In this document: positions 17,864 through 28,776 of the stretch, in pieces
How positions within the stretch are numbered: position 1 is the stretch's first letter
How the letters are laid out: every line of letters starts with the position of its first letter
Assembly (NCBI GenBank): GCA_964421355.1
Contig: CAYQWX010000001.1
Location: forward strand, 1 to 56,470
Source: an uncultured Bacteroidales bacterium
GTDB taxonomy: Bacteria; Bacteroidota; Bacteroidia; Bacteroidales; JALTDM01
Direction of reading: 5' to 3'
DNA: 56,470 bases
Notes under the pieces: model-generated
What the model saw: only the letters and a program-made list of their open reading frames with translations
Database searches by the model: none
Told to the model about the DNA's origin: nothing
Position numbers and translations under genes: made by a program

Positions 17864-18379
17864 ATGAAGAATGCCACTTTTTCTGAGAAGTTAATGCACT
17901 TTATACTATTGTGGGGATTGCTTTTCCTTGTATGGTTAGCTTTTACCTCCACATTTCAAAATCAAGAAGTGCTTGTTGGTGCGGGAACAACAATGTTAAT
18001 TGCAATATTCACATTAAGATTTTTTGATTGTTGTACGTTAGCTTTTTTCTCCCCAACACGATTATTTAACCTAATTAAATACATATTTGTATTTTTAATA
18101 GAATTGGTTAAAGCTAATTTTGATGTAGCAAGAAGAGTAATTTCTCCAAGCTTACCAATAAATCCAGGGATTGTAAAAATAAAAACTCAATTAAAAACCG
18201 ATTATGCCAAAATGGTATTAGCAAATAGCATTACTCTTACTCCGGGAACTTTATCTGTGGATATAGTAGATGATTATCTTTATATTCATTGGATAGATGT
18301 AAAATCTACAGATCCTGAACAAGCTTTTAAATATATCGCAGAAACATTTGAAAAAATACTTATAAAAATTTTCAACTAA
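17864..18379 (+). CDS. mbxA: MBX/MBS-like complex subunit A (MrpE/MnhE antiporter subunit)
   Basis: KANFDVA, INPGIV, LANSITLTPGT and HWID. Confidence 0.9.
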   Translation: MKNATFSEKLMHFILLWGLLFLVWLAFTSTFQNQEVLVGAGTTMLIAIFTLRFFDCCTLAFFSPTRLFNLIKYIFVFLIELVKANFDVARRVISPSLPINPGIVKIKTQLKTDYAKMVLANSITLTPGTLSVDIVDDYLYIHWIDVKSTDPEQAFKYIAETFEKILIKIFN

Positions 18380-18648
18380 TGGAAGCATTTAAAGAAATAG
18401 TAATTTATGGAGCAGTAGGGTTTATTATCCTTGCGATAATAATAGCCTTCATAAGATTTGTTAAGGGACCTACAGCTGCAGATAGAACAGTTGCAGTAGA
18501 TACGCTTTCTACTATTGGTATTGCAGCTCTGGTGCTATTAGGTTATATTGCTCAACGTTTTATATATCTTGATGTTGCACTGGTTTACGGTGTATTAGGT
18601 TTTATTGGAGTGTTAGTAATTGCAAGATATTTGGAGGACGCATTATGA
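18379..18648 (+). CDS. mbxB: MBX/MBS-like subunit B (MrpF/MnhF)
   Basis: RFVKGPTAADR..AVD, YLDVALVY; 3 TM segments. Confidence 0.9.
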   Translation: MEAFKEIVIYGAVGFIILAIIIAFIRFVKGPTAADRTVAVDTLSTIGIAALVLLGYIAQRFIYLDVALVYGVLGFIGVLVIARYLEDAL

Positions 18649-19010
18649 TAAATCAAATATTAGAAATAGTAGGACTTATTTTTATAGTAATAGGTTCCAT
18701 ATTCCTGTTTTTAGGGGCATTGGGTATATTCCGTATGCCAGATGTGTTTAATAGATTACAAGCAGGAACCAAGGCAACAACATTAGGCGGAATGTCTTTT
18801 GTGATTGGTATAGGACTAATACAGCCCGATTGGTTTTGGAAGACTTTTATTATTGTTATTTTCATATTACTGTCCAATCCTATAAGTTCTCATGCTTTGG
18901 CAAGAAGTTCTTATAAATCTAAAATAAAACCATTCTTTAAAGGTAATCCTGAAGAAATGGACGCTTACAAAGATGTTGTAGAAAATCAATCATCAGATTC
19001 TGAATATTAA
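18645..19010 (+). CDS. mbxC: MBX/MBS-like subunit C (MrpG/MnhG)
   Basis: RMPDVFNRLQAGTKATTLG and NPISSHALAR. Confidence 0.92.
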   Translation: MINQILEIVGLIFIVIGSIFLFLGALGIFRMPDVFNRLQAGTKATTLGGMSFVIGIGLIQPDWFWKTFIIVIFILLSNPISSHALARSSYKSKIKPFFKGNPEEMDAYKDVVENQSSDSEY

Positions 19011-19030
19011 AATCTAAAGGAGGATAAGTT

Positions 19031-25836: not shown

Positions 25837-25848
25837 TCATTTGAAACA

Positions 25849-26967
25849 ATGGAAAGAGAAAAAGTTACAACATTATATCTAGGACCTCAACACCCGGGTA
25901 TTACCGGAAACATGATGGTAAGACTTAAACTGAAAGGTGATACCATTGTGGGAGCAAGAACCGAAGTAGGATATCTGCATAGAGGTTTTGAAAAATTACA
26001 GGAAAAAAGAAATTGGTTACAATCTTTTACCATTTTGTGTCGTTTTTGTGTGCCGGAACCTGATCCTGTAGAAGAAGCCTATGCTCTTGCTGTAGAACTT
26101 CTAGAAGGTAGAGAAGTGCCAGAAAGAGCTAAATATATTAGAGTGTTAGTATTGGAATTAGCACGTATGGCTTCATATCTATTGTGGTTTGGAGGACAAT
26201 CAGGTTCTGCAGGATTATATACAATGGGACAATGGAGTGTTGGAGATAGAAACTATATATTAGATCTATTTGAAGATATCACAGGAGGACGTGTTTATCA
26301 CATGTTTATTTGGCCTGGAGGAGTAAGAAGAGATCTCCCCAAAGGATTTAAGGATAAGGCAATGAAGGTTATGGACTATTTTGAAAAACGTTTGGAAGAA
26401 TATGATACATTGATGTTTGAAAATTCCATATTCCAAAAACGTGCTCAAGGTGTTGGAATAATAGATAAAGAAAAAGCAGTAGAATGGGGAGTGGTAGGTC
26501 CTGTGTTAAGAGGTTGTGGAATTAAAAGTGATATTAGAATAGATGATCCTTATGAAATATATGGAGAGTTGTATGAAAAAGGAGTATTTGAAGTACCTGC
26601 ATTTGAAGGTGGTGATGTATGGTCAAGAGCATTGGTAAGAAGATTTGAAATAAGACAATCTATAAATATAATAAGATACGTATTAGATAATATACCTGAT
26701 GGGGAATTTTATAATAAAATACCTAATCCCCACAAATGGAAAATAGCTAAAGGAGATGCATATTCCAGAGTGGAAGCAACAAGAGGAGAAGTTGGATTCT
26801 TTGTTGCAAGTGATGGTAGTCAATATCCACGAAGGACGCATTTTAGAGGAGCTGCTTATGTTCATGCTATCACATTGCTGGAAAATGTTTTAATAGGAGC
26901 AAATGTAGCAGATGTATCTTTTATAATGAATAGTTTAGGAACTTGTCCACCTGAAATAGAACGATAA
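25849..26967 (+). CDS. mbxL: MBX/MBS-like subunit L (NuoD-like, no NiFe site)
   Basis: GPQHP, GYLHRGFEKL, RFCVPEPD and C-terminal SLGTCPPEIER. Confidence 0.9.
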   Translation: MEREKVTTLYLGPQHPGITGNMMVRLKLKGDTIVGARTEVGYLHRGFEKLQEKRNWLQSFTILCRFCVPEPDPVEEAYALAVELLEGREVPERAKYIRVLVLELARMASYLLWFGGQSGSAGLYTMGQWSVGDRNYILDLFEDITGGRVYHMFIWPGGVRRDLPKGFKDKAMKVMDYFEKRLEEYDTLMFENSIFQKRAQGVGIIDKEKAVEWGVVGPVLRGCGIKSDIRIDDPYEIYGELYEKGVFEVPAFEGGDVWSRALVRRFEIRQSINIIRYVLDNIPDGEFYNKIPNPHKWKIAKGDAYSRVEATRGEVGFFVASDGSQYPRRTHFRGAAYVHAITLLENVLIGANVADVSFIMNSLGTCPPEIER

Positions 26968-26979
26968 AAACATTTGATT

Positions 26980-28776
26980 ATGAGTTTTTTTAATTTGAAA
27001 GGCACATTAAAACCATTAACATCATTAAGGCAATTTGCAAAAAAGCCTCATACTATTGAGTTTCCTTATGAAGTGCCTGAAACAAGTGAACGATATAGAG
27101 GATTACATTATAATGATATTGAACTGTGTATTGGTTGTGGCAATTGTTCTACAATATGTCAAAACCAAGCAATAGATATGATTCCGTTAGAGGGAGTAGA
27201 AGGACACAAAGGCGATTCAGGATTGCGTCCAAGAGTAGATAATGGTAGATGCTGTTGGTGTGCATTATGTGTAGAAGTTTGTCCTACAGGTAGTTTGTCT
27301 TTAACAAAAGACTATATTTTTGTTTCAGAAAATCCGGATGATTTTTTATGGACACCAGGTATAGATAATCCTGATGGTAAAAATCTTATATCTTTCATCT
27401 CTACTCAAGAAACTTCTTTGAATGAATATCAACGAGTACCAATGCCCGAATTGGAAGGAGAAGAAAGAGTAAAATCTTTTGCAGAAGTTGTATTGGGATA
27501 TCAAGAAGAAGAAGCTAGGGCAGAAGCCCAACGTTGTATTAGCTGTGGCTTATGTACCGAAGCTTGTCCCGATCATATGCATATTCCTGAATATATAAAT
27601 GCAATAGCATCAGGTAATGATGAAGATGCCATCCGTATTATATACGACAATAACCCACTTCCTGAAATGTGTGGTAAAGTATGTACCCGCCGTTGTGAAG
27701 AAGTGTGTGCTATTGCTAAACGAGGCGAACCTCTTGCTATTAGATGGCTTAAACGTTATGCTACGGAAAGGGCGATTAATGCTGATATGATAAAGGAAAT
27801 TGTTAATCCCAAAGTTGCTCCTGCTAATGGGCATAAAGTGGGTATTGTAGGGGCTGGTCCATCAGGATTAACTGCAGCATATTATTTGGCTTTGCGTGGC
27901 TTTGATGTTACTATATACGAAGCACACGACAAACCAGGAGGTATGACAATGTATGGGATTCCAAAATACAGATTACCTTTGGAAAGCTTGATGAAACAAG
28001 TGGCATATATGGAAAAGATAGGTGTTAAGATACATTATAACACTAAGGTTGGAAAAGATATTAGTTTTGAAGAAATATATGAAAAGTTTGATGCCGTATT
28101 TGTTGGTGTTGGATTTGGTAAACCTTGGACACTTGGAATAGAAGGAGAAGATTTGGAAGGGTCATCACAAGCTGTTTACTTCCTGGAAAGAATAAACAGT
28201 GGAGAAAGAATAGATGTTGGATATAAGGTAGTAGTAATTGGTGGAGGTAATGTGGCAATAGATGCTGCACGTGTATCCCGCCGTCTTGGAGCAGAAGTAG
28301 TAATGTTGTATCGTCGTAGGGTACAGGATATGCCTGCCGATTGGGAAGAAATAGAAGGAGCCGAAGCAGAAGGAGTAGAAATAATACCTCAAGCTATTCC
28401 AATTAAAATACATGGTGAAAATGGCAAGGTGAAAGCAGTAGAGTATCTAAAAGCTAGAATGGTACAAGATGCTAAAGGTGGAAGACCTAGACCGGAACCA
28501 ATAGAAGGTAGTAATACTGTAATTGAATGTAGTTCTGTATTTGCGGCTATTGGACAACAAGGAGACTATTCTTTTATAGAAGAAAGTAAGTTCAAAGATG
28601 CTATAAAAATAGAAAGAGGTCGTTTTGTGGTAAATGAAATGCAACAAACTACTCTTGAAAAGGTATTTGCAGGAGGAGATGCTGTAAATAGAACAGCTGA
28701 TGCTATTAGTGCAATTGCTGATGGATTTAGAGCAGTGAAAGGAATAGAAAAATTATTGTTGGGGAAAAATGTTTAA
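26980..28776 (+). CDS. mbxN: MBX/MBS-like subunit N (NuoI-like 2x[4Fe-4S]) fused to a GltD/NfnL-like FAD/NAD(P)H oxidoreductase
   Basis: RYRGLH..CIGCGNCSTIC and CCWCALCVEVCP, then RCISCGLCTEACP, GKVCTRRCEEVC, GAGPSG, GGGNVA, YRR and FAGGD. Confidence 0.9.
   Translation: MSFFNLKGTLKPLTSLRQFAKKPHTIEFPYEVPETSERYRGLHYNDIELCIGCGNCSTICQNQAIDMIPLEGVEGHKGDSGLRPRVDNGRCCWCALCVEVCPTGSLSLTKDYIFVSENPDDFLWTPGIDNPDGKNLISFISTQETSLNEYQRVPMPELEGEERVKSFAEVVLGYQEEEARAEAQRCISCGLCTEACPDHMHIPEYINAIASGNDEDAIRIIYDNNPLPEMCGKVCTRRCEEVCAIAKRGEPLAIRWLKRYATERAINADMIKEIVNPKVAPANGHKVGIVGAGPSGLTAAYYLALRGFDVTIYEAHDKPGGMTMYGIPKYRLPLESLMKQVAYMEKIGVKIHYNTKVGKDISFEEIYEKFDAVFVGVGFGKPWTLGIEGEDLEGSSQAVYFLERINSGERIDVGYKVVVIGGGNVAIDAARVSRRLGAEVVMLYRRRVQDMPADWEEIEGAEAEGVEIIPQAIPIKIHGENGKVKAVEYLKARMVQDAKGGRPRPEPIEGSNTVIECSSVFAAIGQQGDYSFIEESKFKDAIKIERGRFVVNEMQQTTLEKVFAGGDAVNRTADAISAIADGFRAVKGIEKLLLGKNV

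What the first reader, a model, noticed from the sequence alone, without database searches (positions are those of the whole stretch)
17864..28776. Complete 13-gene MBX/MBS-type (sulfane-sulfur reductase-like) ion-pumping complex in a Bacteroidota genome
Seen in the sequence: MrpE, F, G, DUF4040, MrpB, MrpC, two MrpD-like pumps, then NuoH, B, C, D and I-like subunits, tightly coupled and closed by a terminator. Established knowledge: this matches the subunit set and order (A-B-C-D-E/F-G-H-H'-M-J-K-L-N) of Thermococcales MBX/MBS, which reduces polysulfide while translocating ions; related clusters are known in Thermotogae. It is not canonical complex I (no NuoA/E/F/G, different order) and not a hydrogenase. 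Inference: this heterotroph may conserve energy by respiring polysulfide or disulfides, which I am not aware of being characterised in Bacteroidota.
Basis: partly seen in the sequence, partly recalled or inferred. Interest (0 to 1): 0.9.

Follow-up and report, generated by a model that had tools for sequence, protein, structure and literature searches.

The report
Bacterial MBS-type pump with NADPH module
This is a real 13-gene membrane respiratory complex of the sulfur-reducing MBS/MBX type, but its last subunit carries a built-in NADPH-binding flavoprotein, and the same design turns out to be common in many bacteria and still untested at the bench.

Summary
Thirteen tightly packed + strand genes (17864-28776) end in a strong hairpin terminator. 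Their domains and order are those of Pyrococcus MBS (A-B-C-D-E-G-H-H'-M-J-K-L-N). Subunits L, J, H, H' and the N-terminal part of N each match the solved MBS chains far better than complex I, MBH or Mrp. The three Cys ligands of the MBS catalytic cluster are kept, and the quinone ligands of complex I are absent.

That module carries the NADP(H)-type YRR motif.

The design is not unusual. 72 of 76 decidable related loci, from at least 16 phyla, have the same fusion, and a gltD-type subunit in mbx-like operons of Thermotoga and proteobacteria was noted in print in 2015. Within Bacteroidota the complex is rare: 1 of 200 other sampled genomes.

My best reading is an NADPH-fed (perhaps also ferredoxin-fed), ion-pumping sulfane-sulfur reductase, with confidence about 0.5. 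The main rival is an Rnf-like ferredoxin:NADP+ pump.

It is a new member of a known but biochemically uncharacterised bacterial kind, of moderate interest.

The parts
17720..17863 (+). 144-bp AT-rich 5' intergenic region (presumed promoter region of the operon)
   Evidence: Sequence read. It is the only gap longer than 20 nt on the upstream side. No specific promoter was shown.
17864..18379 (+). Subunit A (MrpE/MnhE-like, 171 aa)
   Evidence: PF01899 MNHE, E 5.6e-43
18379..18648 (+). Subunit B (MrpF-like, 89 aa)
   Evidence: PF04066, E 1.2e-17
18645..19010 (+). Subunit C (MrpG-like, 121 aa)
   Evidence: PF03334, E 4.7e-25
19031..19315 (+). Subunit D (MbhD/DUF4040-like, 94 aa)
   Evidence: PF13244 MbhD, E 1.2e-20
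19312..20022 (+). Subunit E (fused MbhE + MnhB domains, 236 aa), as in MbsE
   Evidence: PF20501 MbhE and PF04039 MnhB. NF009217, 208 bits.
20027..20407 (+). Subunit G (MrpC/NuoK-like, 126 aa)
   Evidence: PF00420, E 1.8e-26
20401..21906 (+). Subunit H (antiporter-like, 501 aa)
   Evidence: 330 bits to MbsH (6u8y_H) against 208 to MbhH. The equivalents of MbsH E138, E219, K250 and K393 are conserved.
21917..23767 (+). Subunit H' (antiporter-like with C-terminal extension, 616 aa)
   Evidence: 315 bits to MbsH' (6u8y_X), aligned over residues 6-607, against 181 to MbhH. E128, K217, K248 and K399 are conserved.
23783..24688 (+). Subunit M (NuoH-like membrane anchor, 301 aa)
   Evidence: PF00146, E 4.2e-53
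24701..25252 (+). Subunit J (NuoB-like, 183 aa) holding the proximal [4Fe-4S] cluster with three Cys ligands (C32, C97, C127)
   Evidence: 238 bits to MbsJ in a gapless alignment, against 145 to NdhK and 117 to MbhJ. The ligand Cys are invariant in 70 of 70 related loci. Ligand identities come from PMC7684303.
25264..25836 (+). Subunit K (NuoC-like, 190 aa)
   Evidence: PF00329, E 1.4e-27
25849..26967 (+). Subunit L (NuoD/NiFe-large-subunit-like, 372 aa)
   Evidence: 345 bits to MbsL, against 228 to Nqo4 and 156 to MbhL. The Nqo4 quinone ligands H38 and Y87 are T19 and V68 here. The vestigial NiFe ligand positions read C64, C67, C366, E369.
26974..27348 (+). Subunit N, N-terminal part: MbsN/NuoI-like 2x[4Fe-4S] domain (aa ~1-125 of the 600-aa ORF)
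   Evidence: 85 bits to 6u8y_N over residues 11-118. Eight Cys (C52, 55, 58, 62, 93, 96, 99, 103) are invariant in 24 aligned fusions.
27430..28776 (+). Subunit N, C-terminal part: NfnB/GltD-type module (2x[4Fe-4S], FAD, NADP(H) site with Y-R-R-R), aa 153-598 plus the stop
   Evidence: 324 bits to P. furiosus NfnI large subunit (5jca_L), 322 to T. maritima NfnB (4ylf_B) and 203 to GltD. Pfam Fer4_20 + Pyr_redox_2. C188, 191, 194, 198, 233, 237, 241, 245 and both Gly-rich motifs are invariant. The YRR motif marks NADP(H) use (PMC7596348).
28797..28841 (.). Bidirectional intrinsic terminator between the operon and the convergent heptosyltransferase gene
   Evidence: Sequence. Fold at -21.6 kcal/mol, z = -6.27.

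Best explanation
The operon encodes a bacterial member of the MBS/MBX branch of the complex-I superfamily. It has a full Mrp-like ion-translocating membrane arm (A-G, H, H'), a NuoH-like anchor (M) and a peripheral arm (J, K, L, N).

The MbsN-like subunit is fused to an NfnB/GltD-type flavoprotein, which acts as a built-in NADP(H) site. It plays the part that the NuoEFG N-module plays in complex I.

Most likely mechanism: NADPH reduces the FAD. Reduced ferredoxin may also feed electrons in at an exposed cluster. Electrons then pass along four [4Fe-4S] clusters in subunit N to the proximal cluster in J. That cluster has only three Cys ligands and therefore one open iron. As in Pyrococcus MBS, it reduces the S-S bonds of polysulfide or another sulfane-sulfur compound in the J/L/M pocket. 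The reaction drives H+/Na+ export through H, H' and the Mrp module, and the F-type ATP synthase uses the gradient.

Shown here: gene set and order, specific kinship to MBS chains, conserved cluster ligands, absent quinone ligands, an NADP(H)-type motif, and conserved ion-path residues.

Inferred: the direction of electron flow, the identity of the acceptor, and the ion pumped.
For: 1. Domain set and order equal MBS, and the operon is tightly packed.
2. Best solved-structure match is always the MBS chain, by wide margins. L: 345 against 228 (Nqo4) and 156 (MbhL). J: 238 against 145 and 117. H: 330 against 208. H': 315 against 181. N-terminal part of N: 85 against 52.
3. The MbsJ ligands C28, C93 and C123 equal our C32, C97 and C127 in a gapless alignment, so the shortened loop is kept. 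The non-ligand C25 is Gly29 here. The three ligands are invariant in 70 of 70 related loci.
4. The quinone ligands of Nqo4 are missing. H38 is T19. Y87 is V68, and Val holds that position in 80 of 80 loci.
5. The fusion module keeps all 16 cluster Cys, the FAD motif and the NAD(P)H Gly motif across 24 sequences of 39-78% identity. It carries the YRR motif, which binds the 2'-phosphate in NfnB and marks the NADP(H)-specific DsrL-2 (PMC7596348).
6. The lysines and glutamates of the MbsH/H' charged axis are conserved.
7. The genome already has Rnf, NfnAB, Nqr and a HydABC-type hydrogenase, but no complex I and no PsrC/NrfD-type polysulfide reductase. A separate terminal-acceptor role is therefore not redundant.
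8. In cultured bacteria, mbxA of T. maritima rose 4.4-fold with S0 (PMC9431562, passages), and 10 of 13 MBS genes of strain 3DAC rose with S0 (PMC10356935, passages).
9. Rex, an NADH/NAD+ sensor, sits directly upstream in 6 of 80 related loci.
10. The probable source run is labelled hydrothermal vent metagenome.
Against: - The S0 link in T. maritima and strain 3DAC is transcriptional and physiological only, and I did not check whether the N subunit of 3DAC is fused.
- No sulfur-handling gene is linked to the cluster, either in the window or recurrently in the 80 loci.
- No clear NSR homologue was found; both Pyr_redox_dim proteins look like dihydrolipoyl dehydrogenase.
- The NADPH-to-polysulfide span is small, roughly 50-100 mV by textbook potentials. 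That leaves room for about one ion per two electrons, yet the complex has the full three-pump MBS arm.
- The family also occurs in aerobes and sulfur or iron oxidisers such as Tropicimonas, Gallionellaceae, Thiodiazotropha and Sedimenticola. There, sulfur reduction is not the obvious role.
- The named His of the charged axis (MbsH H330, MbsH' H336) is Leu in both our subunits. Only the His four residues later is kept.
- I could not place a named Thermococcales MbsL, Ehr or Fpo sequence in the tree.
Confidence: 0.5

Rival explanations
1. An Rnf-like, ion-translocating ferredoxin:NADP+ oxidoreductase. Reduced ferredoxin donates to the FeS chain and the fused NfnB-type flavin reduces NADP+. This is the older reading of Mbx, and the reading that Degli Esposti (2015) gave to the gltD-type subunit.
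For: The fused module is closest to NfnB/NfnI, enzymes that link NADP(H) to ferredoxin: 322-324 bits. PMC4758237 (passages) reads the gltD-like subunit as the NAD(P)+ reduction site. The genome makes much reduced ferredoxin through PFOR, IOR and other 2-oxoacid oxidoreductases. The ferredoxin-to-NADP+ span is ample for pumping. No sulfur genes are linked.
Against: Electrons would run from ferredoxin to the flavin without ever reaching the J cluster, the site where this superfamily couples redox chemistry to pumping. Yet the three J ligands are invariant in 70 of 70 loci and the J, K, L, M module is fully kept. The same genome already has Rnf and NfnAB. P. furiosus MBS, once thought to do this reaction, turned out to reduce sulfane sulfur (PMC7684303). 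Four nested loci (Campylobacterota, Synergistota) lack the flavoprotein part but keep the rest.
Confidence: 0.2
2. The same enzyme, but with a different or additional acceptor or partner. The J/L pocket reduces another compound (organic persulfide or disulfide, thiosulfate-derived sulfane, or an unknown substrate). Alternatively, the NfnB module hands electrons to a separately encoded DHOD-like FMN protein, as in dihydropyrimidine dehydrogenase.
For: A 'dihydroorotate dehydrogenase-like protein' (NF005741, 381 bits, above its cut-off of 303) is encoded inside the operon, at overlaps or gaps of -3 to 48 nt (most 10 nt or less), in 8 of 80 related loci, five of them Bacteroidota. The window's genome has a 42%-identical copy elsewhere, at C20:21461-22435. 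A rubrerythrin-like ORF follows the fusion gene in 22 of 80 loci. The vestigial NiFe site here keeps three Cys plus Glu.
Against: The DHOD-like gene is not linked in this genome, and it is adjacent in only 8 of 80 loci. Nothing identifies a substrate.
Confidence: 0.15
3. The complex runs mainly in reverse. The ion gradient drives electrons uphill from sulfide or polysulfide (or from NADPH) to NAD(P)+ or ferredoxin. This would be useful above all in the sulfur- and iron-oxidising carriers.
For: Many carriers are chemolithoautotrophs or diazotrophs that need low-potential reductant: Thiodiazotropha, Sedimenticola, Thioalkalivibrio, Thiobacillaceae, Gallionellaceae. The S0/H2S and NAD(P) couples lie close together by textbook values, so reversal is cheap. 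DsrL shows that NfnB-like modules can work in either direction in sulfur metabolism (PMC7596348).
Against: This organism looks like a fermenter with surplus reductant: PFOR, IOR, HydABC, Rnf. I searched for no sulfur-oxidation genes, so there is no direct evidence.
Confidence: 0.08
4. A complex-I-like NADPH:menaquinone oxidoreductase that uses the NfnB module in place of NuoEFG.
For: The genome lacks any other NuoD-like gene, yet it has quinone-dependent enzymes: Nqr, and cytochrome bd at window 52233-54674. NCBIfam would name L 'NADH-quinone oxidoreductase subunit D' (NF004739, 400 bits against a cut-off of 360).
Against: Both quinone head-group ligands of Nqo4 are absent. H38 is Thr. Y87 is Val, and Val is invariant in 80 of 80 loci. 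The NuoB-like subunit has the MBS three-Cys pattern, not the tandem Cys of complex I. L scores 117 bits higher to MbsL than to any complex I subunit.
Confidence: 0.05

Closest known systems
Pyrococcus furiosus membrane-bound sulfane reductase MBS (formerly MBX; PDB 6U8Y)
   Same: Same 13-subunit set and gene order. L, J, H, H' and the N-terminal part of N each match its chains best. The three-Cys proximal cluster with the shortened loop is kept, as are MbsL C85 and C385 (our C67 and C366). The full Mrp-type arm with two antiporter-like subunits is present.
   Different: Subunit N carries a ~450-aa NfnB/GltD-type FAD/FeS/NADP(H) module that the archaeal enzyme lacks (6u8y_N is 208 aa). The non-ligand Cys25 of MbsJ is Gly here. 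A third vestigial NiFe-site Cys (C64) is present. The host is a mesophile-like 31% GC Bacteroidales genome. Activity is untested.
Bacterial 'mbx-like' operon with a gltD-type subunit (Thermotoga, proteobacteria; Degli Esposti 2015, PMC4758237) and T. maritima MBX (PMC9431562)
   Same: Same architecture. Thermotogae loci L071 and L077 in my survey carry the same fusion. The fusion matches NCBIfam PRK13984 'putative oxidoreductase' end to end. A rubrerythrin-like gene often follows the fusion gene, as that paper says (22 of 80 loci).
   Different: That paper speaks of NuoI being 'substituted', whereas here the NuoI-like domain is kept and fused. Its functional reading (ferredoxin to NAD(P)+) predates the MBS work. 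Bacteroidota are not mentioned in the passages I read. There is no rubrerythrin gene after this operon.
Respiratory complex I (NuoA-N)
   Same: Homologous Q-module (B, C, D, I), H anchor and antiporter-like subunits. Functionally there is the same logic: a nicotinamide-oxidising flavoprotein feeds an FeS wire that ends at the NuoB-type cluster.
   Different: The input module is unrelated: an NfnB/GltD-type FAD protein rather than NuoEFG with FMN. There is no NuoA, J or L layout. The Mrp E/F/G subunits are present. The quinone ligands are absent.
NfnB / NfnI large subunit, and DsrL
   Same: The C-terminal 450 aa align over their whole length, with 322-324 bits to NfnB/NfnI-L. The YRR NADP(H) motif is shared. 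DsrL likewise joins an NfnB-like body to a di-cluster ferredoxin domain and serves as the NAD(P)H port of a sulfur enzyme (PMC7596348).
   Different: There is no NfnA-type partner in the operon; a separate NfnAB pair lies on contig 7. The second cluster motif has four invariant Cys (C233, 237, 241, 245), where NfnB uses three Cys plus Glu. The ferredoxin-like domain is N-terminal and of the NuoI type. Nothing shows bifurcation.
Rnf complex
   Same: It would be a functional analogue if the ferredoxin:NADP+ rival is right: both would be ion pumps linking ferredoxin and nicotinamide pools.
   Different: The protein families are unrelated, and Rnf is separately encoded in this genome on contig 8.

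Membership tests
MBS/MBX (membrane-bound sulfane reductase type) | Thirteen subunits in the order A-B-C-D-E-G-H-H'-M-J-K-L-N: an Mrp module followed by NuoH, B, C, D, I homologues | tested here: met
   ORFs and Pfam domains in that order
MBS/MBX (membrane-bound sulfane reductase type) | Subunits specifically closer to MBS than to complex I, NDH, MBH, FHL or Mrp | tested here: met
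   phmmer against PDB. L: 345 against 228 and 156. J: 238 against 145 and 117. H: 330 against 208. H': 315 against 181. N domain: 85 against 52. In a FastTree of 209 rows the window falls in one clade with all 80 mbx-like loci (SH-like support 88). No named Thermococcales, Ehr or Fpo row could be added.
MBS/MBX (membrane-bound sulfane reductase type) | Proximal [4Fe-4S] cluster of subunit J ligated by only three Cys on a shortened loop | tested here: met
   By sequence only. Gapless alignment to MbsJ: C32, C97 and C127 equal C28, C93 and C123, and the fourth position is Gly. Invariant in 70 of 70 loci.
MBS/MBX (membrane-bound sulfane reductase type) | Large subunit has lost part of the four NiFe-ligand Cys but keeps C85 and C385 | tested here: met
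   C67 and C366 are kept. The pattern at the four positions is C, C, C, E. The placement of the four positions rests on the L1/L2 motifs quoted in PMC6085437 and on my own alignment by eye.
MBS/MBX (membrane-bound sulfane reductase type) | Small stand-alone MbsN ferredoxin-like subunit as the entry point for ferredoxin | tested here: not met
   The N-like domain is fused to a 450-aa NfnB-type module. The fusion holds in 72 of 76 decidable loci.
MBS/MBX (membrane-bound sulfane reductase type) | Ferredoxin-dependent reduction of polysulfide or DMTS, lost on ferricyanide treatment | not testable with these tools
   Needs enzyme assays
MBS/MBX (membrane-bound sulfane reductase type) | Redox-driven H+/Na+ translocation | not testable with these tools
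   Sequence only: 4 of the 5 named axis residues are kept in each of H and H', and the named His is Leu.
Respiratory complex I | NuoE/F/G NADH-oxidising module in the complex | tested here: not met
   None in the operon. NuoE/F-like genes lie only beside the [FeFe] hydrogenase on contig 2.
Respiratory complex I | Quinone head-group ligands (Nqo4 H38 and Y87) and tandem Cys in NuoB | tested here: not met
   T19 and V68, with Val in 80 of 80 loci. A single Cys in GTGCG. The roles of these residues are recalled from the T. thermophilus structure literature; Y87 is also named in PMC4758237.
Group 4 membrane-bound [NiFe] hydrogenase (MBH/Ech) | Four Cys ligands (two CxxC motifs) in the large subunit, plus Hyp maturation genes | tested here: not met
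   The fourth ligand position is Glu369. MbhL is only the 52nd-ranked PDB hit at 156 bits. HypD (PF01924) was not found in the 99.77%-complete genome.
NfnAB transhydrogenase | NfnB-type subunit paired with an NfnA-type (FAD, [2Fe-2S]) subunit | tested here: not met
   No NfnA-like gene in the operon. A canonical NfnA+NfnB pair lies on contig 7.

The most novel reading that the evidence does not exclude
The NfnB-fused MBX is a distinct and very widespread bacterial class of complex-I-like enzyme. It would be an ion-coupled NAD(P)H:sulfane-sulfur oxidoreductase in which a GltD/NfnB-type flavoprotein evolved into the role that NuoEFG plays in complex I. The class comes in an NADPH flavour (YRR motif: this window and 26 of 65 full-length fusions) and an NADH flavour (S/A/C-L-E: 38 of 65, with A-M-E in one more). 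It would be reversible, so that fermenters such as this vent Bacteroidales dump NADPH onto polysulfide while pumping ions, and sulfur oxidisers use the gradient to make NAD(P)H directly from sulfide or polysulfide. In some lineages a DHOD-like FMN protein would act as a 14th subunit.
Probability: 0.3. Interest if true: 0.75.

Novelty: new member of a known kind. Interest (0 to 1): 0.42.

Why it matters
MBS is held to be an evolutionary link between hydrogenases and complex I, but only the archaeal enzyme has been purified.

This survey shows that the usual bacterial form differs in one important respect: it has a built-in NAD(P)(H) flavoprotein. That form occurs in at least 16 phyla, among them abundant fermenters of sulfidic habitats and sulfur-oxidising symbionts. 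Annotation pipelines name its parts 'NuoD' and 'FAD-dependent oxidoreductase', so metabolic reconstructions probably misread it as a partial complex I.

Knowing whether it couples NAD(P)H to sulfur reduction, or ferredoxin to NADP+, would change energy budgets for many anaerobes. It would also show a second, independent way of attaching a nicotinamide-oxidising module to a complex-I-type pump.

For this particular window the gain is modest. It extends the family to a rare set of Bacteroidales, but the genome is uncultured, and better test organisms exist.

Tried and rejected
Canonical complex I, a [NiFe] hydrogenase and a stand-alone Mrp antiporter were considered and rejected; see the membership table.

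A named reference tree was not achieved. The alignment-based genome scan missed Thermococcales, because its two peptide patterns do not fit MbsL. The representative library carries no names. I tried to find the Thermococcales MbsL cluster among the unnamed representatives by PDB look-ups of P0125, P0124 and P0121, and none was it. The tree therefore shows only that the window sits within the bacterial mbx-like clade. It used FastTree with SH-like supports. 22 of the 150 representatives were left out because they cover fewer than 330 residues of the query.

The promoter/terminator scan found no more sites than in shuffles and missed the real terminator. I saw no convincing Rex box in the 5' region by eye.

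The look-up of sequencing runs: no RNA holder listed.

One paper search was wasted, because 'mbsl' matches 'metres below sea level'. Searches combining Mbx with Melioribacter, Cloacimonadota, Marinimicrobia, Sedimenticola or Thiodiazotropha listed no paper holding 'Mbx' among the 30 of 94 shown.

Supplementary Fig. 9 and Data 1 of PMC10356935 (MbsL distribution, subunit origins) and the supplements of PMC7684303 could bear on whether fused N subunits or Bacteroidota carriers were already listed.

I did not run structure prediction or fold search. The tools return no coordinates, so cluster-to-cluster distances could not be measured.

Full report
OBSERVATION. One search lists thirteen + strand ORFs from 17864 to 28776. 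They are joined by overlaps of 1-7 nt or gaps of at most 20 nt. A 144-nt AT-rich spacer precedes them. A convergent gene starts 63 nt downstream.

Pfam assigns them, in order: MnhE, MrpF, MrpG, MbhD, MbhE+MnhB in one protein, NuoK/MrpC-like, two Proton_antipo_M proteins (501 and 616 aa), NuoH-like, NuoB-like, NuoC-like and NuoD-like. Every match is above its curated cut-off.

The spacer after the last gene holds a hairpin, GCCAGAGG/CCTTTGGC, flanked by A and T runs. It folds at -21.6 kcal/mol, and 0 of 200 shuffles fold as well.

THE EXCEPTION. The thirteenth gene encodes 600 aa, about three times the size of a NuoI/MbsN subunit.
- Residues ~1-125 are the expected di-cluster domain: 85 bits to MbsN (6u8y_N), against 52 bits or less to any complex I or NDH subunit I.
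- Residues 153-598 are a complete NfnB/GltD-type iron-sulfur flavoprotein: Fer4_20 + Pyr_redox_2, with 324 bits to P. furiosus NfnI-L, 322 to T. maritima NfnB and 203 to glutamate synthase small chain.
- In an alignment of 24 such fusions of 39-78% identity, sixteen Cys are invariant (four CxxC-type groups, enough for four [4Fe-4S] clusters). So are the FAD motif GxGxxG and the GGGxxA motif of the NAD(P)H fold.
- The strand after that fold reads L-Y-R-R-R. In T. maritima NfnB the YRR residues hold the 2'-phosphate of NADPH, and DsrL enzymes with YRR are NADP(H)-specific (PMC7596348, passages read). I therefore predict NADP(H) for this protein.

KINSHIP. I compared subunits with all solved structures by phmmer. 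Bit scores:
- L: 345 to MbsL, 228 to T. thermophilus Nqo4, 156 to MbhL.
- J: 238 to MbsJ, 145 to NdhK, 117 to MbhJ.
- H: 330 to MbsH, 208 to MbhH.
- H': 315 to MbsH' over residues 6-607, thus including the C-terminal extension, and 181 to MbhH.

A FastTree of 209 L-type sequences was built from the window, 80 named loci and 128 of 150 unnamed representatives; 22 representatives were dropped for short coverage. It puts the window with locus L005 ('Bacteroidales bacterium', 91% identity, support 100). That pair lies inside a seven-row Bacteroidales group (98), and all 80 loci fall in one clade (88) apart from the other 120 rows.

Three PDB spot checks agree with this split. Two representatives, one placed in the clade (P0121) and one fragment left out of the tree for short coverage (P0124), score best to MbsL. 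One outside the clade (P0125) scores about equally to complex I and MbsL.

CATALYTIC FEATURES. According to the MBS structure paper (PMC7684303, passages read):
- the proximal cluster is held by MbsJ C28, C93 and C123 only;
- C25 lies too far away because the loop is three residues shorter than in MBH;
- the free iron is the proposed site of S-S cleavage;
- MbsL keeps two of the four NiFe cysteines (C85, C385), and these are dispensable.

Our J aligns to MbsJ without a gap. It has C32, C97 and C127 at the ligand positions and Gly29 at the C25 position. In the 70 related loci where J could be read, the three ligands are invariant, and the fourth position is Gly (45) or Cys (25).

Our L keeps C67 and C366 (equal to C85 and C385) and also has C64, so the four former NiFe positions read C, C, C, E. 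That pattern, with E or D at the fourth position, occurs in 24 of 80 loci. HypD was not found in the genome, so a NiFe site is not expected.

The two residues that bind the quinone head group in T. thermophilus Nqo4, H38 and Y87, are Thr19 and Val68 here. The Val is invariant in 80 of 80 loci.

In the antiporter-like subunits the equivalents of MbsH E138, E219, K250 and K393 and of MbsH' E128, K217, K248 and K399 are conserved. The named His (H330, H336) is Leu in both, while the His four residues further on is kept.

DISTRIBUTION. The fusion is common.
- A search of the 5.8-billion-protein collection returned 7857 hits at E <= 1e-10 among 8000 scored candidates. The best 120 clusters were all 595-605 aa and 73-92% identical. 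They were named only 'FAD-dependent oxidoreductase', 'oxidoreductase' or 'glutamate synthase small chain', from Bacteroidetes, Bacteroidales, 'Chlorobi bacterium' and Candidatus Sulfidibacterium hydrothermale.
- A scan of species-representative genomes with an L alignment found 583 relatives, and the best 80 were kept. They come from Bacteroidota (16), Pseudomonadota (25, many of them sulfur or iron oxidisers and symbionts), Spirochaetota, Cloacimonadota, Campylobacterota, Thermotogota, Acidobacteriota, Planctomycetota, Ignavibacteriota, Fidelibacterota and others.
- My script found the whole A-to-N order in essentially all loci long enough to show it.
- Of the 80 loci, 65 have a full-length fusion, 6 have a fusion cut by a contig end and 1 has a shortened one. 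Four have an unfused N (three Campylobacterota, one Synergistota). Four cannot be judged. That makes 72 of 76.
- The Campylobacterota branch nests inside fused lineages, which suggests loss of the flavoprotein part there.
- Of the 65 full-length fusions, 26 carry YRR like the window. 38 carry S/A/C-L-E and one A-M-E, all with an acidic third residue, the kind of motif that goes with NAD(H) in DsrL-1.
- The membrane arm comes as H + H' (27 loci) or as one ORF of about 1050 aa (29 loci).
- Within the window's own phylum the complex is rare. One of 200 other evenly drawn genomes has an MbsL-like gene at E <= 1e-85. Its contig position coincides with locus L015, the Melioribacter-titled record.
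- Among 41 close relatives (same genus, family and order) the full-length fusion is present in 10 genomes, counting the window's genome and one copy cut by a contig end.

WHAT IS IN PRINT. I read passages, not whole papers.
[quoted passage not shown] The paper takes this to be the NAD(P)+ reduction site, and notes that the operon often ends with rubrerythrin.
- Liang et al. (2022, PMC9431562) report a 13-subunit T. maritima MBX whose mbxA rises 4.36-fold with S0.
- Leng et al. (2023, PMC10356935) report a 13-gene MBS in the bacterium 3DAC. 10 of its 13 genes are induced by S0, and MbsL was surveyed in Caldisericota, Thermotogota, Thermodesulfobiota and Aquificota.
- NCBIfam has a full-length model for the fusion, PRK13984 'putative oxidoreductase' (650 bits, below its equivalog cut-off of 946). 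The NuoD equivalog model accepts subunit L, so L would be named NuoD.
- No listed paper connects the complex to Bacteroidota. Apart from Degli Esposti, no listed paper joins Mbx, Thermotoga and glutamate synthase in a relevant way. No listed paper names MbsN or MbxN (0 occurrences in all 13 listed of 16), and the only one joining NuoI and GltD in this context is Degli Esposti 2015.
- I found no report of a purified bacterial enzyme.

CONTEXT IN THIS GENOME (2.18 Mb, 99.77% complete).
- The operon follows atpD-atpC, a phosphopantetheinyl transferase and a thiamine-binding-protein-like gene. LPS genes follow it.
- L is the only NuoD-like gene, so there is no complex I.
- Rnf lies on contig 8 and Nqr on contig 19. 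Cytochrome bd lies in the window at 52233-54674.
- A PFOR-type enzyme and further 2-oxoacid:ferredoxin oxidoreductases were found, including an IOR.
- The genome also holds a HydABC-type [FeFe] hydrogenase and a separate NfnA+NfnB pair.
- No NrfD/PsrC-type subunit was found, and no clear NSR.
- The probable source run is labelled hydrothermal vent metagenome.
- This is the gene set of a ferredoxin- and NAD(P)H-producing fermenter that already owns a ferredoxin:NAD+ pump and a transhydrogenase.

MECHANISM. The simplest wiring consistent with the parts is: NADPH to FAD, then two NfnB-type clusters, two MbsN-type clusters, the three-Cys cluster in J, and finally a substrate in the J/L/M pocket. 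The free energy drives the Mrp-like arm.

The invariance of the J ligands argues that chemistry still happens at that cluster. It thus argues against a pure ferredoxin-to-NADP+ shuttle, which would bypass J. By homology to the only characterised member, and given the absent quinone ligands, sulfane sulfur is the most likely acceptor.

The weak points are these. No bacterial assay exists. No sulfur genes are linked. The driving force from NADPH is small. The family also occurs in aerobic and lithotrophic bacteria, which hints at reversibility or another substrate. I put the full statement at 0.5 and the ferredoxin:NADP+ pump at 0.2.

SIDE LEADS.
- In 8 of 80 loci a 'dihydroorotate dehydrogenase-like protein' (NF005741) lies inside the operon, directly before A or after N. 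The window's genome has a copy next to ftsZ.
- A complex prediction paired that copy with residues 150-600 of the fusion. The verdict was weak support: score 0.52, best of 3 controls 0.00.
  - The tool's calibration: the mark was reached by 58 of 80 solved complexes and 2 of 110 mismatched pairs.
  - At 0.60 or under, the mark was reached by only 7 of those 80 solved complexes, and by both mismatched pairs that passed.
  - The runs agree in at least 82% of contacts, and the partner's pLDDT is at least 82.
  - Dihydropyrimidine dehydrogenase joins both folds in one solved chain, so the pass may reflect that likeness.
- Rubrerythrin-like ORFs follow the fusion in 22 of 80 loci. Rex precedes the operon in 6 loci, and a Crp/Fnr-type regulator in 5.

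VERDICT. The cluster is real and correctly recognised as MBS/MBX-type. The proposed sulfur respiration is plausible but unproven. The key overlooked feature is the NADP(H) module. The system is a new (Bacteroidales) member of a widespread bacterial kind that has been noted in print but never characterised biochemically.

Noticed in passing
Loci L006, L007, L014, L021, L063, L070, L074, L075; own genome G000:C20:21461-22435 (L085:4956-5960): A 'dihydroorotate dehydrogenase-like protein' (NF005741, FMN TIM-barrel, ~330 aa) is encoded inside the mbx-like operon in 8 of 80 loci. The window's genome has an unlinked 42%-identical copy after ftsA-ftsZ. A predicted complex with the NfnB-type part of subunit N gave weak support: score 0.52, best of 3 controls 0.00. 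The mark was reached by 58 of 80 solved complexes and 2 of 110 mismatched pairs, but at 0.60 or under by only 7 of the 80 and by both mismatches. The runs agree in at least 82% of contacts, and the partner's pLDDT is at least 82. Dihydropyrimidine dehydrogenase has both folds in one solved chain, so the pass may be from likeness.
   Followed up: partly
65 full-length fusion genes in loci L005-L084: The fused flavoprotein comes in two cofactor-motif types. 26 carry Y-R-R (NADP(H)-type, as in the window). 38 carry S/A/C-L-E and one A-M-E, the kind of motif seen in NAD(H)-type DsrL-1. Both types occur with either membrane-arm layout.
   Followed up: partly
Loci such as L058-L064, L074, L075: In 29 of 80 loci the two antiporter-like subunits H and H' are replaced by a single ORF of about 1050 aa, presumably a fusion. 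The window has the split form.
   Followed up: no
Loci L016, L017, L023 (Sulfurovum, Nitratifractor) and L019 (Synergistota): These loci have an unfused, ~135-155-aa N subunit. In the Campylobacterota the A gene follows N (order ..M-J-K-L-N-A). Their L subunits nest among fused lineages, which suggests secondary loss of the flavoprotein part.
   Followed up: partly
22 of 80 loci, e.g. L081:12897-13397; also L080:8134-8586: A small rubrerythrin/ferritin-like ORF (PF02915) starts about 5 nt after the fusion gene, mostly in Pseudomonadota. This was noted earlier by Degli Esposti (2015). It is absent after the window's operon.
   Followed up: partly
window 25849-26967 (subunit L), residues C64, C67, C366, E369: Three of the four former NiFe-ligand positions are still Cys and the fourth is Glu; P. 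furiosus MbsL keeps only two Cys. The pattern C-C-C-E/D is shared by 24 of 80 loci. No HypD was found in the genome, so its meaning is unknown.
   Followed up: partly
window 15065-16840: The F1 ATP synthase beta and epsilon genes lie just upstream on the same strand, separated from the operon by a phosphopantetheinyl-transferase-like gene and a thiamine-binding-protein-like gene.
   Followed up: no
window 52233-54674: Cytochrome bd oxidase subunit I (PF01654, 561 bits), followed by an ORF that I take for subunit II without having annotated it. Together with Nqr on contig 19 this shows that this 'anaerobe-like' genome has a quinone-dependent, oxygen-reducing branch.
   Followed up: partly
window 41032-46635 (- strand) and 35048-36064: A 1867-aa protein rich in Ig-like, fibronectin and cleaved-adhesin domains, and a 338-aa protein. 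Both end in a T9SS C-terminal sorting domain, a Bacteroidota hallmark.
   Followed up: no
Locus L083 (record titled Candidatus Bathyarchaeota archaeon): Its L subunit is nearly identical in tree distance to that of a gammaproteobacterial MAG (L045; support 99). This more likely reflects a mis-binned contig than an archaeal carrier.
   Followed up: no
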